In this document: positions 1-39,327 of the stretch, one piece after another
Numbering within the stretch: the first letter of the stretch is position 1
How the letters are laid out: every line of letters starts with the position of its first letter
Assembly: GCA_033696785.1 (NCBI GenBank)
Contig: GCA_033696785.1_4550.1
Source of the DNA: a phage
DNA length: 39,327 bases
Strand: one strand, 5' to 3'
Translations under genes and position numbers: made by a program
Notes under the pieces: model-generated
What the model saw: the letters and a program-made list of their open reading frames with translations, nothing else
Database searches by the model: none
Told to the model about the DNA's origin: nothing

Positions 1-40
1 AAAAAAACCCCTCAAGCACCCGAAGGCACCCAAGGGGTTT
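1..40 (-). terminator. T-phi-like late terminator downstream of the capsid gene
   Basis: Minus-strand RNA CCCCUUGGGUGC-CUUCGG-GUGCUUGAGGGG followed by U7; the stem closes only with G-U wobbles on the minus strand. Closely resembles T7 T-phi as recalled. Confidence 0.8.
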
Positions 41-43
41 CAA

Positions 44-198
44 TTAGTTGTTGGACTCAGCCAGTTTAGCGGCCCTGTTCGCAGCACGAGTACGCGCAGC
101 TTTCTGTTGAGGAGTTAGAGTATCCTCTTCAGGTGCAGCCGCTACTGTAGCGACGTTAGGTTGGCTAAAGGTGCTTACGCCGCTGGACTGAAAACCAG
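44..198 (-). CDS. Minor capsid protein 10B C-terminal extension, reached by -1 ribosomal frameshift from 10A
   Basis: Slippery G GTT TTC (plus 190-196) lies 4 codons before the 10A stop. The -1 frame then stays open about 52 codons to a TAA at 44-46, just before the terminator hairpin; the other frame hits TAG almost immediately. Confidence 0.55.
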
Positions 199-20957: not shown

Positions 20958-21130
20958 AGTTATCTGGTACATGTGTACTTGTCCTCATCGTGTAAACTGT
21001 CGTGAATACGTTTGCGGCCCTCATAGACCGCCTTCAGGTGACGCATAGTCGCATCATGTTTTAACTGCCCGGTCTTGACCATAATCCGGGCGTTAGTGAC
21101 GTGGTGCTGGCAGAGACCATAAGTTACCAT
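20958..21130 (-). CDS. Small early protein, about 57 aa
   Basis: Hand-translated [22 protein letters not shown]...; start overlaps the Ocr stop (TGATGG). Not in the ORF track. Confidence 0.3.
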
Positions 21131-21462
21131 CACTCGCAGCCCTCTTCAGCCTCAAACCAGACCACATGAGAGCTATTAGACACATCGTTATACAGTGCCT
21201 CATAAATGCGAGCTTGCAGTATATGCGTCACGTCCTTGGTCTCAGGCATCATCCCAGAGTCCTCAAACTCGTGGTCAATACCATCAGCAGCCATTACCGT
21301 GAAAATCTCGTGGTAGTAGTGCGGAACCATATCGTCTACGACTTCATGCAGCGCATCTTGGTAGTCATCGCCTTCAGCTATTTCGTCGTACTGAATGCGC
21401 TCGTTAAATGCTTCAACAGTTGCAGCCAGCAGCTCATAGTATGCGTTAGCGTTACGTTTCAT
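21130..21462 (-). CDS. ocr: Ocr, DNA-mimic anti-restriction protein (T7 gp0.3 homolog)
   Basis: 110 aa, acidic, with [43 protein letters not shown] matching T7 Ocr. Confidence 0.88.
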
Positions 21463-21663
21463 TTGTATATCCTCTCAAAGTTGTTTGTGTATGTTAGTGA
21501 CTATCAGTCAGAGCCTTCAGATGTAGACTCAAAGACTCTGTAGTTAGTCGCTATCGGCGCACATTAAGAGTTTATCCAGATTGTTAAAGAGCATTCCCTT
21601 CAGTCAGAGGACTTCAGGTAGACCATTTCAGTGTTGGTCGTCACCGTTGTTTCGATGTGGTAC

Positions 21664-21693
21664 AGCTTACATCTTATAGTTACTGCTTGTCAA
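21664..21693 (-). promoter_or_regulatory. Candidate host sigma70 early promoter (T7 A2/A3-like)
   Basis: Minus strand TTGACA-N18-TAAGCT followed by GTACCACATCGAAAC, resembling the region after T7 A3. Confidence 0.45.
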
Positions 21694-21805
21694 CTACTTT
21701 CTGTCATCTGCCTGTTGTTCGTATGACTTATCAGGCTGTCTACTTAACCGGGATGACCCGGCGTCTTCACTATCCGGTTGTTGCCGTGTCGTGTTGACGG
21801 AAGCT

Positions 21806-21834
21806 ATTAAGCCATAGTCTAGACCTATAGTCAA
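21806..21834 (-). promoter_or_regulatory. Candidate host sigma70 early promoter (T7 A1-like)
   Basis: Minus strand TTGACT-N17-CTTAAT; the downstream AAGTAGACAGCCTGATAAGTC block is near-identical to T7 as recalled. Confidence 0.45.
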
Positions 21835-21944
21835 TAGGCAATCTTAAATAATATTGATTAAGCTATCGTCGGCCCCATGGTGTAAGAGGATATAGTCTTT
21901 GACTAACATGTCTTAGACCTTAAGTCTATAGCCTTGTGTCTATT

Positions 21945-22032
21945 AACTGTAGGTCTCTGACTGTAGGTAGCGGCATTACCGATGGTCGATGACTGTAGGT
22001 AGTTAGACTGTAGGTAGTTAGACTGTAGGTAG
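21945..22032. repeat. Short direct repeats (ACTGTAGGT core) in the terminal, non-coding region
   Basis: gactgtaggtag at about 21959, 21991, 22006, 22021 (last three tandem, 15-bp period), related copies at 21945, 22289, 22304, 22347. Analogous to the T7 ACCTAAAG arrays near the genome ends. Confidence 0.7.
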
Positions 22033-22487
22033 TGACTCAAGGTCTGATACAGATAGAGACTCAGAGAAGACCAATAGTCCCTACCTATCGTCCTGACCTC
22101 CAGCCATAGCCTAGACCTATCGTTTACCTAACGTCTTGACCATCGGTCCAACCTTATGATAGACTGGGGGTAGGGCCTTTGTCTGGACTGAAAGAGGGCC
22201 TATGGGGGGAGACTTGAGGTTCTTGAACTGTGAGATGTGGTCTCAAACTTTTGGTCCAAACTCATCGTCCCTGCCTTAAGGAACCAGCTACTGTAGGTCA
22301 AGGACCGTAGGTCTAAGACCATCGGATGACGACCAGTGAACCAATCAGTAGGTAGACCAGAAGTGAGAGCCTGAATGGTGTTACCTAAAGTCCTTGACTA
22401 CAGTAGCTAAGGTCAGTACGTGGATAAAGACTCACTCTACTGACCTTAGGTCTTCCGCTCATGAATCGTTACCATGATTGCGTTAAT

Positions 22488-22643
22488 TACACTGAGAGAC
22501 CAGAGAACATACGAGAGTCTCGACCCACCCGACCCACTTACTTCCAGCAGTAACGCCAGCAGCAAGTAGAACAGCAGCAAGAAACCTGTATGTAGCTCGA
22601 TTGGTCGCCAGAGCTTTAAGTACAGCTTTGGTCTTTGCCATAT
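22488..22643 (-). CDS. Small protein downstream of phiOR (gp19.5 position)
   Basis: About 51 aa hand-translated (MAKTKAVLKALATNRATYRFLAAVLLAAGV...) with GGAGGT RBS. Not in the ORF track. Confidence 0.35.
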
Positions 22644-22820
22644 GCTACATACCTCCTGTATCTATGGTCTTTACTATCTGTATTGGAGGGATTATGATTA
22701 ATATCACCCTCCTTCCATCGGTGCAAGCCTTAGGTAAGAACTCGGAGTCTACCTCCTAAGGTCTTGCATAAAGTCTGCATATGTATATTCACTACAGTAA
22801 TACTATAAGTAACCGGGGGT

Positions 22821-22843
22821 CTTCCCTATAGTGATAGTTAAGT
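22821..22843 (-). promoter_or_regulatory. Phage RNAP promoter (phiOR equivalent)
   Basis: Plus strand cttccctatagtgatagttaagt, about 95 nt past the terminase stop, firing toward the genome end. Confidence 0.8.
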
Positions 22844-22937
22844 CCAAACTCCTTGTAAAACAGTAGGTTAGGCTGGTAGTAACTATAGGTTACTAACTGC
22901 GTATTCATGCAGCTTTCACCTATAGTTATTCATTCAG

Positions 22938-24701
22938 CTAGTGGAACGTAACGTAGGACCCTAGCCCTAGCTCGTCGTCCGTATCATGAGTTACCCGGAC
23001 CCCATTGTCCCAGAACTCAGTGTGGATGGACTCGAAGCCTTTACGTGGGTTCTCCATCTGTTCCTCCAGCCACTCCTCAGTGACTTCACGTTCGCCTTTG
23101 TTGGCATCCTTAGCCATAGACTCAACGAAGAACTGTACACCGATAGCCAGCGCATCAAGTCGGTCATCGTGTGCCAAGGCTCCACGTTCGCGAGAGATAC
23201 GGGTCATCTGATAGAAGAGAGAGTAGATAGGGTTACGCACACCATCCTTGTCAGAGGCTGTCTGGTAGTCTTGGACGATAGCAGCAGCGTTAACGATAAG
23301 TCGGTGAGACCCCATGATAGGCTCCAGAACGTCACAGATGCGGAGTTCTTTCTGACCCTTACTCTTCACTTCAGTTACAGCAGCAGGATGGATACGGGCC
23401 GCTACAGGCTTGAATAGCTCAAGGTACATACCATCACCGAAGTTACCCTCAATGACGTATTCGTTTACCTTCCACTTACGACCAATCTTAGCCAATGCTT
23501 CCAGCGTAGAGTCTTCATAGCCACCTCGCATACCACCAACTTCCATAGCGAAGATGTAGCCGTTGAGCTGATACAGTACCGCATAGCCAGTTTCATCCTT
23601 ACCACGACCACTAGGGTCAATGACCAGAATCTTCTGGGTGTACGAACTGAAGGCAGAACCTACAGTCTGATACGTGTGGTATGAGTCACCCATGAGTCCA
23701 ACGTTAGGAACGTCCTCACGCTTGTTCTGAGGGTTTGGCAACCATTGGTAGACCATTGGGCTGGACGCTGGGTCCAAGTCGGCTACGATAAGGTCGCGGA
23801 GCTTCAGAGGGTACTTCTCAGCATCACTCAGGTTAGGGTTAAGCATGAACTGTAGAGCGAAGCCAGCTTTACCGTATGACAGCTCACGTTCCTTCAGGTC
23901 CGTATCATCGAATCGCACTTCATCGGTCGGACGCCAGTAGAAGGACTCAGGGTCCTCTTCCAGTTCTGCCTGAAGCATAGGCGCCAGACGGCCACCGTAA
24001 GACTGCCAGTCCTTCTTATCACGTGGATAACGAGCAGGCCAGATAGTAGTTGTGTACCCACGGCCTTCCAGCTCACGATACAGGGTCATCTCGTTCTGAG
24101 GAGTACCCAGATAGATGATTGTACCTCCCGGCTTCAGAATAGCGTCGAACTCTTTCACAAGCTCTGACAGACGGTCTCGTGCAGCCTGAGTCGCTGAGTT
24201 GTTTGGAACCTCCACGTCATCGGCAATCAGGATGTCAGCACGACTACCAGTCAACTGACCAGTGATACCAACAGACTTAACCGAAGGTGAGTGGTCTGGT
24301 TTGGCTGGTCCAACATCAAAGCTGATAACCGCATCTCGCTGCCCCTGCTTAGGTTTGAGTTCCTGAAGCTGAGGCATGAGGTCGATGATTCGCTTGATGA
24401 AGATGGAGTTAGCATCGGCTCGTTCCTTTGATGCCGACACAATCATGAACTTCAAGTCTGGGTTGTTCCATAGCTTCCAGACAACGAAGGCACACGTAAT
24501 GAAGGACTTCCCGATACCACGGAACGCCTGTAGGATGAAGCGCCTGTTGTCCCCAGCCGATAGTTTCTTCGCCATGTCAATCTGACAGCGAGTCGGGACT
24601 GGGAGTGACAGAGCTTTCCACAGGACGAACAGGAAGAACACGAAGTCTTCCTTCATACGTGTAGTCATTAGCGCCTGACGCGCCACTAAGTCTTTACTCA
24701 A
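22938..24701 (-). CDS. Terminase large subunit (T7 gp19 homolog)
   Basis: 587 aa with ATPase Walker A region (GIGKSF), DEAD-like ILIADDVE and a C-terminal nuclease domain. Confidence 0.97.
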
Positions 24702-25257: not shown

Positions 25258-25521
25258 TTACTGCACTCCATATCCAGTGTCATTATCCTCCGTAGCGGAG
25301 AGCACCTTATCGTACTCTGCGTTCAGGGCCTCCATATCAGCGAGCGTCTTCTCGTCAACAGACACCTTGCTTAGCACGAAGTTGTGACGAGCCAGTAGCT
25401 TCTCAATGGCGTTGTAAAGCTGAGGTGAACGCTTAGAGTCATCCCGCAGGTCTTGCAGCATGAGTCGAGCACGTTCAGTATCTAGCATTAAGAGGAACTT
25501 CTCTAAGTCCATCTGCGTCAT
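25258..25521 (-). CDS. Terminase small subunit (T7 gp18 homolog)
   Basis: 87 aa with FLLMLDT and RSPQLYNAIEKLLARHNF matching T7 gp18. Confidence 0.88.
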   Translation of the reverse strand: MTQMDLEKFLLMLDTERARLMLQDLRDDSKRSPQLYNAIEKLLARHNFVLSKVSVDEKTLADMEALNAEYDKVLSATEDNDTGYGVQ

Positions 25522-38517: not shown

Positions 38518-38645
38518 GTGCCCTCCAGATACTTAGCAGCGTTTAGTAGAATCTCACGGGAGTCCTTGAAGCCTCCTAGAGACTTATTGCAGTGCCTGCA
38601 GAGAAGACCTCTAACCTCGCCAGTTGCGTGGTTGTGACTAGCCAT
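38493..38645 (-). CDS. Endonuclease VII-like (HNH superfamily) mini-ORF
   Basis: About 50 aa hand-translated: MASHNHATGEVRGLLCRHCNKSLGGFKDSREILLNAAKYLEGTCRLSRKA. The H.H.TG.VRGLLC..CN..LG block is the Endonuclease_7 signature as I recall it. Not in the ORF track. Confidence 0.45.
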   Translation of the reverse strand: MASHNHATGEVRGLLCRHCNKSLGGFKDSREILLNAAKYLEGTCRLSRKA

Positions 38646-39211
38646 TAGTCCCTCCCGATGTCAGACATCATGTTGTAGCGACCAGTGTCCATCTCATACT
38701 CCATAACCTGCTGATAGAGTTCTGCTTCCTGCTCACGAAGGTATAGCTCTGACTCTGGGCTACCGAAGAACTTAGCGTTGAACTCACGGCTGGCTTTAGT
38801 GACGATGTAGTCCCTGAAGACCACAGGCATCTCAGAGAATGGTTTCATCTCCACAAGCTCTACCGTGATCGGGTCGGTGAAAGTGGTTGACTGAGTGGAT
38901 AGGTCGTACAGGTATCCACCCATGTTGCTGTAGTAGCTGGTGGCCCCAGCGGTCATTACACGGAGGTATGACGGCAGGAATCGAATCCTATTGTCTTGGA
39001 CATCAGGTGTCAGGACAGCAGCTTCGTTAATGTTAAAGTTCCATCCTTTAGCTTGGACCTGACGATTGACACGATGCAGGATACGTTGAGCATTCGAGAC
39101 GTCAGCGTTACCTTCGTCAAGCTGTAGTACTGCTGGTTCACCGATAGCAGCTAACATATCGTTGATGGCATCTAAGTCATCGTTAGCATTCAGTGGAATG
39201 TATTGAGACAT
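38645..39211 (-). CDS. Tail tubular protein A (T7 gp11 homolog)
   Basis: 188 aa with LAAIGEP, ANA.RIL, GYLYDL.TQST and FRDYIVTKASREFN matching T7 gp11. Confidence 0.95.
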   Translation of the reverse strand: MSQYIPLNANDDLDAINDMLAAIGEPAVLQLDEGNADVSNAQRILHRVNRQVQAKGWNFNINEAAVLTPDVQDNRIRFLPSYLRVMTAGATSYYSNMGGYLYDLSTQSTTFTDPITVELVEMKPFSEMPVVFRDYIVTKASREFNAKFFGSPESELYLREQEAELYQQVMEYEMDTGRYNMMSDIGRD

Positions 39212-39222
39212 AGGTTTACTCC

Positions 39223-39312
39223 TTAACGGTCATATGGGCTAGACGGTGAGCTGGGCAGCAGGTACGCCCAGAATAAGACGAATAGTGCTAACCCTGTGTA
39301 AATAAGGACCAT
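39223..39312 (-). CDS. Small hydrophobic peptide between T-phi and gene 11
   Basis: About 29 aa hand-translated (MVLIYTGLALFVLFWAYLLPSSPSSPYDR) behind a strong RBS (AAGGAGGGACT); its stop sits in the gene 11 RBS. Not in the ORF track. Confidence 0.35.
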   Translation of the reverse strand: MVLIYTGLALFVLFWAYLLPSSPSSPYDR

Positions 39313-39327
39313 AGTCCCTCCTTAAGC

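What the first reader, a model, noticed from the sequence alone, without database searches (positions are those of the whole stretch)
21900..22480. Window is a circular permutation of a terminally redundant linear genome; termini lie in a repeat-rich gap
The window ends join natively (terminator at 1-40, then RBS and gene 11 at 39212-39327), so it was opened inside the late region. The real ends should lie between the A1-like promoter (about 21834) and the gp19.5-like ORF (about 22488). That stretch is non-coding and full of ACTGTAGGT-type repeats, the counterpart of T7's ACCTAAAG arrays. A direct terminal repeat is probably collapsed to one copy.
Basis: inference. Interest (0 to 1): 0.45.

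Follow-up and report, generated by a model that had tools for sequence, protein, structure and literature searches.

The report
Collapsed terminal repeat of T7-like phage
The window is a complete K1F-like (T7-family) phage genome that an assembler closed into a circle and opened in the late genes; its real DNA ends and its single retained copy of the 181-bp terminal repeat lie at 22055-22235, which is the ordinary, already described arrangement for this phage group.

Summary
The window is a Kayfunavirus (K1F-like, T7 family) genome with every gene on the minus strand.

- **Permutation:** the two window ends join natively. An 828-nt query across the join aligns in one piece, at up to 98% identity, in 119 phage records.
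- **Terminal repeat:** window 22055-22235 (minus strand) is 92% identical to the K1F direct terminal repeat. It starts TCTCACAG at 22235 and ends GAGTCTCT, followed by ATCTGTA.
- **Boundaries in relatives:** the same boundaries appear where ends were mapped by run-off sequencing (SH3, SH4), predicted by PhageTerm (Penshu1, Peacock) or annotated (EcoDS1). T7 and T3 share the boundary motifs.
- **Copy number:** the window holds one copy, so the virion genome should be about 39,508 bp.
- **Short repeats:** ACCTACAGT occurs 10 times against 0.5 expected. Five copies sit directly after the repeat, where T7 carries its ACCTAAAG array.
- **Limit:** the ends rest on homology. No reads were available.

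Asides: a conserved hairpin after gene 19.5 is inverted only in this genome, the junction motif is ATCTGTA rather than T7's ATCTGTT, and the array length varies widely among relatives.

Novelty: already known. Interest is low.

The parts
22055..22235 (-). Single retained copy of the direct terminal repeat, 181 bp. The predicted left end of virion DNA is base 22235 (TCTCACAG...). The predicted right end is base 22055 of the second copy (...GAGTCTCT). The right boundary is uncertain by about 1-3 nt.
   Evidence: It is 92% identical to the 178-bp K1F repeat and unique in the window. Four left-end-defined records start at the aligned base. The right ends of relatives fall at GAGTCTC, GAGTCTCT, GAGTCTCTA or GAGTCTCTATCT. 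T7 and T3 end CCCT|ATCTGTT.
22048..22054 (-). Concatemer-junction motif ATCTGTA directly after the repeat. It is the counterpart of the T7/T3 class II RNA polymerase pause signal ATCTGTT and matches it at 6 of 7 bases.
   Evidence: TATCTGT occurs only twice on the coding strand of the whole window. TATCTGTA is present in 21 of 21 Kayfunavirus loci. It is annotated 'concatemeric junction' in EcoDS1 and PE3-1.
21940..22047 (-). Array of seven CCWWNRGT units, five of them exact ACCTACAGT, spaced 13-18 nt apart. It includes a perfect 15-bp tandem of 2.9 copies at 21991-22033. It is the positional counterpart of the T7 ACCTAAAG array to the right of the left repeat.
   Evidence: T7 layout. The array measures 67-247 bp and 3-14 units in relatives.
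22236..22482 (-). Non-coding interval between the gene 19.5 stop and the repeat (the unique right end). It holds four CCWWNRGT units, at 22450, 22311, 22297 and 22254.
22407..22449 (-). Conserved hairpin downstream of gene 19.5, with perfect 12-bp arms, a 19-nt spacer and a small inner stem. In this genome the whole palindrome-bounded segment is inverted relative to all relatives.
   Evidence: DNA fold -11.7 kcal/mol, z -2.6; arms present in all 27 relatives; 4 of 14 pairs with compensatory changes; none of 77 matching records has the window's orientation.
22483..22641 (-). Gene 19.5, 52 aa, the last gene of the genome.
   Evidence: phrog_2193 at E 1.7e-24. PE3-1 annotates its homologue as gp19.5.
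22823..22838 (-). Phage RNA polymerase promoter core (ACTATCACTATAGGGA) upstream of gene 19.5, in the position of T7 phiOR.
   Evidence: It is one of 10 minus-strand matches against 0.37 expected. T7 phiOR lies upstream of gene 19.5.
21798..21834 (-). A1-like host (sigma-70) early promoter, with TTGACT at 21834-21829. It is the first promoter after the left end.
   Evidence: It aligns at 98% to the annotated host RNAP promoter 469-505 of EcoDS1. The generic consensus scan did not pick it up.
21130..21462 (-). Gene 0.3 (ocr-like anti-restriction protein), the first gene of the genome.
   Evidence: phrog_2568 at E 9.5e-52.
22938..24701 (-). Terminase large subunit (gp19), the enzyme expected to cut at the repeat boundaries.
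   Evidence: phrog_38 at E 1.8e-131.
25258..25521 (-). Terminase small subunit (gp18).
   Evidence: phrog_1351 at E 1.1e-34.
1..40 (-). T-phi-like intrinsic terminator after the capsid gene. The window was opened right after its T run.
   Evidence: 16-bp stem, -23.5 kcal/mol, then seven T. The join is contiguous in relatives.

Best explanation
The window is the complete genome of a K1F-like (Kayfunavirus) member of the T7 family. It is written as the reverse complement and was opened arbitrarily between the capsid-gene terminator and gene 11.

Virion DNA of this phage is expected to be linear, about 39,508 bp, with a 181-bp direct repeat at both ends. The left end would start at window base 22235 (TCTCACAG...). 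The right end would finish with a second copy ending at the equivalent of base 22055 (...GAGTCTCT). Assembly merged the two copies, which closes the sequence into a circle. That circle is the same as the junction between genomes in a replicating concatemer.

By analogy with T7, the region would work as follows.
1. Replication gives head-to-tail concatemers with one repeat per junction.
2. Late transcription from the promoter at 22838-22823 runs through gene 19.5 and the repeat and meets the junction motif ATCTGTA.
3. Terminase (gp18/gp19) cuts at the two repeat boundaries during packaging, and the second repeat copy is made by DNA synthesis.
4. On infection the left end enters first, and host RNA polymerase starts at the A1-like promoter about 400 bp in.

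The short ACCTACAGT-type units flank the repeat as the ACCTAAAG units do in T7. Their function is not established in either phage.

What is shown here is the permutation, the single copy, the orthology and the conserved boundaries. What is inferred is the actual ends of this genome, pausing at the junction motif, and the cutting and duplication steps.
For: - **Gene order and orientation:** (ocr, RNA polymerase-size ORF, capsid, gp11, gp18, gp19 and gp19.5, all on the minus strand).
- **Closest records:** Kayfunavirus at 93-95% identity over 93% of 25 kb, colinear through terminase, gp19.5, the repeat and the early genes.
- **Native join of the window ends:**
- **Repeat homologue:** 92% identical to K1F's and unique in the window.
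- **Records that begin at query base 1 of the repeat:** K1F, EcoDS1, YZ1, LS2, LS3, ECG4, HC13, Penshu1, Peacock and PR_Kaz2018. Several carry a second copy at the other end.
- **Annotations of the repeat in relatives:** terminal repeat 1-178 plus a concatemeric junction in EcoDS1, and a 179-bp PhageTerm direct terminal repeat in Penshu1 and Peacock.
- **Ends measured on virion DNA:** run-off sequencing gave 183 bp for SH3 and 190 bp for SH4, and the same paper cites 179 bp for K1F (PMC4925675). Those genomes end at the aligned boundary.
- **Shared boundary motifs in T7 and T3:** TCTCAYAG at the start and CCCT|ATCTGTT at the end, with the same order of parts.
- **How common the collapse is:** more than half of the 60 best records hold a single internal copy, so collapsed and permuted deposits are usual in this genus. 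Loss of the repeat and opening in mid-genome in short-read assemblies of T7-like phages is described in PMC10438801.
- **The T7 concatemer and repeat-duplication model:** summarised in PMC4281155 and PMC10438801.
Against: - No reads or virion DNA data exist for this genome, so its ends and the second copy are not observed.
- The right boundary differs by 1-6 nt among deposited relatives.
- The junction motif is ATCTGTA. The class II signal of T7 RNA polymerase is reported as strictly ATCTGTT, so pausing there by this phage's polymerase is not assured.
- No phiOL-type phage promoter was found in the gap, so the layout is not identical to that of T7 and T3.
Confidence: 0.9

Rival explanations
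1. The genome has a direct terminal repeat, but in this phage its boundaries are shifted or its length differs from the homology-based 22055-22235. For example, the ends could lie inside the ACCTACAGT array or at the hairpin.
For: Repeat length ranges from 166 to 191 bp among relatives, and deposited right ends differ by a few bases. The region next to the repeat evolves fast, with arrays of 67-247 bp.
Against: The length differences come from indels inside the repeat. Both boundary motifs are identical in the window and in every terminus-defined relative and are shared even with T7 and T3.
Confidence: 0.06
2. The phage packages by the headful, so its genome is circularly permuted with no fixed ends, and the circular assembly reflects that and not a collapsed repeat.
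For: A circular-looking assembly with a single copy of every segment is what headful phages also give (one search shows no duplicated ends).
Against: The terminase is the T7 gp18/gp19 type. Relatives at 90-95% identity have fixed ends by run-off sequencing and PhageTerm. The repeat and its boundary motifs are conserved.
Confidence: 0.02
3. The window is not a full genome but a mis-joined or chimeric contig, so that the join between its ends, or the region around 22000, is an assembly artefact.
For: The 43-nt hairpin segment at 22407-22449 is inverted relative to all relatives, which could raise doubts about the local assembly.
Against: The end-to-end join and the whole stretch from gp19.5 to gene 0.3 are contiguous in many independent records. 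The 12-bp arms of the inverted segment are shorter than usual assembly k-mers, so an assembler would not flip it (inference).
Confidence: 0.02

Closest known systems
Direct terminal repeat and concatemer junction of Escherichia phage K1F and other Kayfunavirus (EcoDS1, PE3-1, Penshu1, Peacock, Citrobacter phage SH3)
   Same: The sequence is orthologous: 92% identity to the K1F repeat, the same first bases TCTCACAGTTCAAGAAC, the same last bases GAGTCTCT, and the same TATCTGTA after it. The neighbours match too, with gene 19.5 and a conserved hairpin on one side and an ACCTACAGT/CCATAAGT array followed by the A1-like promoter on the other.
   Different: The repeat is 181 bp against 178-191 bp, because of small indels such as a run of six C where relatives have four or five. 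The array is among the shorter ones (99 nt, 7 units, against 67-247 nt). The hairpin segment is inverted. In the window only one copy is written, and the genome is opened elsewhere.
Bacteriophage T7 terminal repeat (160 bp), its flanking short-repeat arrays, and the CJ class II pause site
   Same: The order of parts is the same: phiOR-type promoter, gene 19.5, short repeats, repeat starting TCTCACAG and ending ...CT, ATCTGT, an array of 8-9-nt units every 13-15 nt, then host promoters and gene 0.3. The unit differs by one base (CCTAAAGT in T7, CCTACAGT here). The early leader is partly conserved (AAGTAGACAGCCTGATAAGTC and CTCTTTAACAATCTGG are visible in both).
   Different: The interior of the repeat is not alignable to T7's. 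The junction motif is ATCTGTA and not ATCTGTT. No phiOL promoter was found. The conserved hairpin right after gene 19.5 has no sequence counterpart in T7, which has a different inverted repeat about 100 nt further on.
Bacteriophage T3 terminal repeat (231 bp)
   Same: The first 50 nt are recognisably homologous (TCTCATAGTTCAAGAACCCAAAGTACCCCCCCCATAGCCCCTCTTAAAG in T3, TCTCACAGTTCAAGAACCTCAAGTCTCCCCCCATAGGCCCTCTTTCAG here). Its right boundary is CCCT|ATCTGTT.
   Different: The T3 repeat is longer, it has phiOL, and its array uses CCTAAAG units.

Membership tests
T7-type (Studiervirinae) direct terminal repeat / concatemer junction | T7-like genome with a gp18/gp19-type terminase and colinear gene order from gene 0.3 to gene 19.5 | tested here: met
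T7-type (Studiervirinae) direct terminal repeat / concatemer junction | Sequence orthologous to repeats whose ends were mapped on virion DNA or from reads | tested here: met
   92% identity to K1F. Aligned with EcoDS1, Penshu1, Peacock and SH3/SH4.
T7-type (Studiervirinae) direct terminal repeat / concatemer junction | Conserved left terminus TCTCAYAG and right boundary ...CT followed by ATCTGT | tested here: met
   Window 22235 and 22055/22054. The same is seen in K1F, T7 and T3.
T7-type (Studiervirinae) direct terminal repeat / concatemer junction | Arrays of short 8-9-nt repeats flanking the repeat | tested here: met
   T7 counterpart.
T7-type (Studiervirinae) direct terminal repeat / concatemer junction | The repeat is present at both ends of linear virion DNA, seen as two-fold read coverage and fixed read starts | not testable with these tools
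   Only the assembled sequence is available, and it holds one copy.
Class II pause/termination signal of T7 RNA polymerase | Strictly conserved seven bases ATCTGTT in the non-template strand | tested here: not met
   The window and 21 of 21 Kayfunavirus loci have ATCTGTA, a 6 of 7 match. The signal may still work for this genus's own polymerase.
Class II pause/termination signal of T7 RNA polymerase | Preceded by A, C or T, and located at the right boundary of the repeat in the concatemer junction | tested here: met
   It is preceded by T, at 22055/22054.
Class II pause/termination signal of T7 RNA polymerase | The phage RNA polymerase pauses or terminates 6-8 nt downstream | not testable with these tools
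   This needs in vitro transcription with the Kayfunavirus polymerase.
Headful-packaged, circularly permuted genome (considered and rejected) | No fixed ends, and a terminase of a headful type | tested here: not met
   The terminase is T7 gp19-like, and close relatives have fixed ends.

The most novel reading that the evidence does not exclude
The conserved hairpin just after gene 19.5 (22407-22449) could be the DNA hairpin that primes synthesis of the second repeat copy during concatemer processing, a model long proposed for T7. On that reading, the inversion of the whole palindrome-bounded segment in this one genome would be a rare footprint of that hairpin folding back in vivo, a flip of the kind seen at hairpin-primed replication ends. 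The evidence does not exclude this. The fact that all 77 relatives with the same loop keep one orientation argues that any such flip is very rare. An ordinary template-switch mutation at a quasi-palindrome, or an RNA-level role for the hairpin, explains the data at least as well.
Probability: 0.05. Interest if true: 0.5.

Novelty: already known. Interest (0 to 1): 0.1.

Why it matters
The value is practical. With the ends placed, this genome can be re-oriented to start at 22235 on the minus strand, the 181-bp second copy can be restored, and the true length (about 39.5 kb) can be reported. That matters for comparative alignment, for engineering or rebooting the phage, and for correct annotation: several database relatives carry spurious 'hypothetical proteins' over this non-coding junction. 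It adds no new biology, because the T7-type terminal repeat, its collapse in assemblies and its boundaries in the K1F group are all already described.

Tried and rejected
- **Generic promoter and terminator scan of 21300-23000.** It found three promoter-like sites against 2.4 expected, which is no enrichment. It missed the A1-like promoter, which was placed by homology to the EcoDS1 annotation instead.
- **Direct short-BLAST of T7 A1-A3 against the window.** It gave only chance 11-mers.
- **Rfam search of 21300-22900 at E up to 1.** No match, so the hairpin is not a described RNA family.
- **phiOL-type phage promoter in the gap.** None found with up to 3 mismatches.
- **PHROG scan of the small ORFs in the gap.** Only 21694-21834 (minus strand) matched a family of unknown function (phrog_30192). 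I regard that family as probably spurious ORF calls over conserved promoter DNA. Part of the stretch (AAGTAGACAGCCTGATAAGTC) is shared with the T7 interval between A1 and A2, where the T7 record annotates no gene.
- **Flip-flop reading of the hairpin as a regular process.** Rejected, because all 77 matching records keep the other orientation.
- **Literature.** The K1F genome paper (PMC1317022) is not held, so its 179-bp figure is taken second-hand from PMC4925675. Two searches failed on term length. A search for 'pacB' returned PacBio papers only.

Full report
**What the window is.** All long ORFs lie on the minus strand. PHROG matches identify, in T7 order on that strand:
- an ocr-like gene 0.3 (21130-21462);
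- the major head protein (175-1218);
- tail protein gp11 (38645-39211);
- the small and large terminase subunits (25258-25521 and 22938-24701);
- gp19.5 (22483-22641).

The nearest records are Kayfunavirus (K1F-like Studiervirinae) at 93-95% identity over about 93% of a 25-kb query. They are colinear from the terminase through gp19.5 and the non-coding gap into the early genes. The window is therefore a new isolate or assembly of a well-known genus, written as the reverse complement.

**Is it a circular permutation?** On the coding strand, window 40..1 is a 16-bp-stem hairpin (-23.5 kcal/mol) followed by seven T. This is the terminator after the capsid gene, and the window begins right after the T run. 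The sequence that continues from 39327 downward holds a strong RBS, a 29-aa ORF (39312..39223), a second RBS and the ATG of gene 11 at 39211. An 828-nt query built across the join aligns in one piece at up to 98% identity, and 119 phage records cover at least 80% of it in one place. The join is therefore native.

**Where the ends are.** The K1F reference record begins and ends with the same 178 bases. The window's minus strand from 22235 to 22056 is 92% identical to that repeat and matches nowhere else in the window.

In a search with this 180-nt segment, many records start at their base 1 with query base 1: K1F, EcoDS1, YZ1, LS2, LS3, ECG4, HC13, Penshu1, Peacock and PR_Kaz2018. Several have a second copy at the other end. 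The annotations agree:
- EcoDS1 marks 1-178 as 'terminal repeat' and 177-184 as 'concatemeric junction'.
- Penshu1 and Peacock mark 1-179 as a direct terminal repeat predicted by PhageTerm, with the right-end copy not written.
- For the K1F-like Citrobacter phages SH3 and SH4, the ends were read by sequencing off virion DNA. This gave 183 and 190 bp, and the same paper cites 179 bp for K1F (PMC4925675). The corresponding contigs start the repeat at TCTCACAG and stop at GAGTCTCT or within a few bases of it.

In the multiple alignment, four left-end-defined genomes begin exactly opposite window base 22235, and all six sequences share GAGTCTCTATCTGTA at the other boundary. T7 (160 bp) and T3 (231 bp) start TCTCACAG and TCTCATAG and end CCCT followed by ATCTGTT.

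On this basis I place the repeat at 22235..22055 (181 bp), with the right boundary good to about 3 nt. Adding back the second copy gives a virion genome of about 39,508 bp.

More than half of the 60 best database records also carry one internal copy only. The loss of these repeats, and the opening of contigs in mid-genome, in short-read assemblies of T7-like phages is documented (PMC10438801).

**The repeats.**
- It occurs 10 times in the window against 0.50 expected, and none of 100 shuffles reached 10. Six copies lie in 21946-22298, all on the minus strand.
- With the looser unit CCWWNRGT, which also fits T7's CCTAAAGT, seven units fall in the 115 nt right after the junction motif. That is 61 per kb against 1.5 per kb outside the gap. 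Four more fall between gene 19.5 and the repeat.
- Three units form a perfect 15-bp tandem at 21991-22033.
- T7 has the same arrangement, with CCTAAAG units before, inside and above all after its repeat. 'Counterpart of the T7 ACCTAAAG arrays' is therefore a fair description.
- The arrays flank the repeat and do not form the termini. Among relatives, the array between the junction motif and the conserved anchor CAGTTAATAGACAC ranges from 67 to 247 nt and from 3 to 14 units. It is a fast-changing, copy-number-variable element whose role is not established, in T7 either (my knowledge of the T7 literature).

**Flanking landmarks.** A second TTGACA at 21693-21688 is followed by GTACCACATCGAAAC, which resembles the transcript start of T7 A3 (by eye). 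The phage-promoter core ACTATCACTATAGGGA occurs 10 times on the minus strand, including 22838-22823 upstream of gene 19.5, where T7 has phiOR. None lies in the gap, so no phiOL counterpart was found.

**How it most likely works.** This part is inferred from T7 and not shown here.
1. Replication gives concatemers with one repeat per junction.
2. Terminase cuts at fixed sites during packaging, and the second copy is synthesised. Strand-displacement and hairpin-primed models are both in the literature (summaries in PMC10438801 and PMC4281155).
3. In T7 the phage RNA polymerase pauses at a class II signal at the junction. That signal is given as a strictly conserved ATCTGTT preceded by A, C or T.
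4. Here, and in 21 of 21 Kayfunavirus loci, the motif is T-ATCTGTA. Position and context are kept, but the seventh base differs. Whether this genus's polymerase pauses there is open.

**Things seen in passing.** The main one is a hairpin starting 33 nt after the gene 19.5 stop (22407-22449).
- It has perfect 12-bp arms and a 19-nt spacer with a small inner stem.
- The arms are present in all 27 related loci examined. The most distant locus has two compensatory arm changes, and the inner stem also covaries, so 4 of 14 pairs show double changes.
- Three loop types exist among relatives. The window's loop is the exact reverse complement of the commonest type.
- A 67-nt query from the window matched 77 phage records only over the 43-nt arms-plus-loop segment and never through the flanks. 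No record covers 80% of the query. The strand of the match was checked against gene orientation for PE3-1 and for two reverse-written records only. I infer that the segment is inverted in this genome alone.
- A fixed inversion by template switching at a quasi-palindrome is the simplest reading. It does show that what is conserved is the structure and not the loop sequence.
- Rfam has no match.

**Verdict.** The feature is an orthologue of the already described K1F/T7 terminal repeat and concatemer junction, and the collapse is a routine assembly outcome. Interest is low. The only untested link is direct evidence from reads or virion DNA for this particular genome.

Noticed in passing
window 22407-22449 (minus strand): A conserved hairpin after gene 19.5, with 12-bp arms that covary in distant relatives, has its whole palindrome-bounded 43-nt segment inverted in this genome. 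Its loop is the exact reverse complement of the commonest loop type. None of the 77 phage records that match it aligns through the flanks, so none appears to share this orientation.
   Followed up: partly
window 22048-22055 (minus strand): The concatemer-junction motif is TATCTGTA in this genome and in 21 of 21 Kayfunavirus loci. T7 and T3 have ATCTGTT, which is reported as strictly required by T7 RNA polymerase. The pause signal of this genus's polymerase may therefore differ.
   Followed up: partly
window 21940-22047; loci L001, L002, L005-L030: The short-repeat array right after the terminal repeat is highly variable among close relatives: 67-247 nt and 3-14 units, with PE3-1 carrying five tandem AACCATAGGTCTCAAC units. 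The window has a perfect 15-bp tandem of 2.9 copies.
   Followed up: partly
window 39223-39312 (minus strand): A 29-aa hydrophobic ORF (MVLIYTGLALFVLFWAYLLPSSPSSPYDR) with a strong RBS lies between the capsid terminator and gene 11. It has no PHROG match. Some relatives annotate a hypothetical protein at that place.
   Followed up: partly
window 41-174 (minus strand): 134 nt lie between the capsid-gene stop and the terminator. One relative annotates a 'minor capsid protein' here, so this may be the frameshift extension equivalent to T7 gene 10B.
   Followed up: no
window 21694-21834 (minus strand): A 46-aa TTG-start ORF over the early promoter region matches phrog_30192 (unknown function, E 6e-27). 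Part of this DNA is shared with the T7 interval between promoters A1 and A2, where the T7 record annotates no gene. The family is therefore probably built from spurious ORF calls.
   Followed up: partly
window 22136-22165 (plus strand): A sigma-70-like site (TTGACC, 18-nt spacer, TG-TAGACT) points leftward inside the terminal repeat, reminiscent of the leftward A0 promoter annotated in T3 and T7. It is a weak consensus match at chance frequency.
   Followed up: no
window 21463-22482: No phage-polymerase promoter (phiOL counterpart) lies between the terminal repeat and the host promoters, unlike in T7 and T3.
   Followed up: partly
window 22204-22209 (minus strand), inside the terminal repeat: A run of six C varies in length among relatives (four or five C in K1F, EcoDS1, Penshu1 and Peacock; eight C in T3). 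This is a likely slippage or sequencing-sensitive spot.
   Followed up: no
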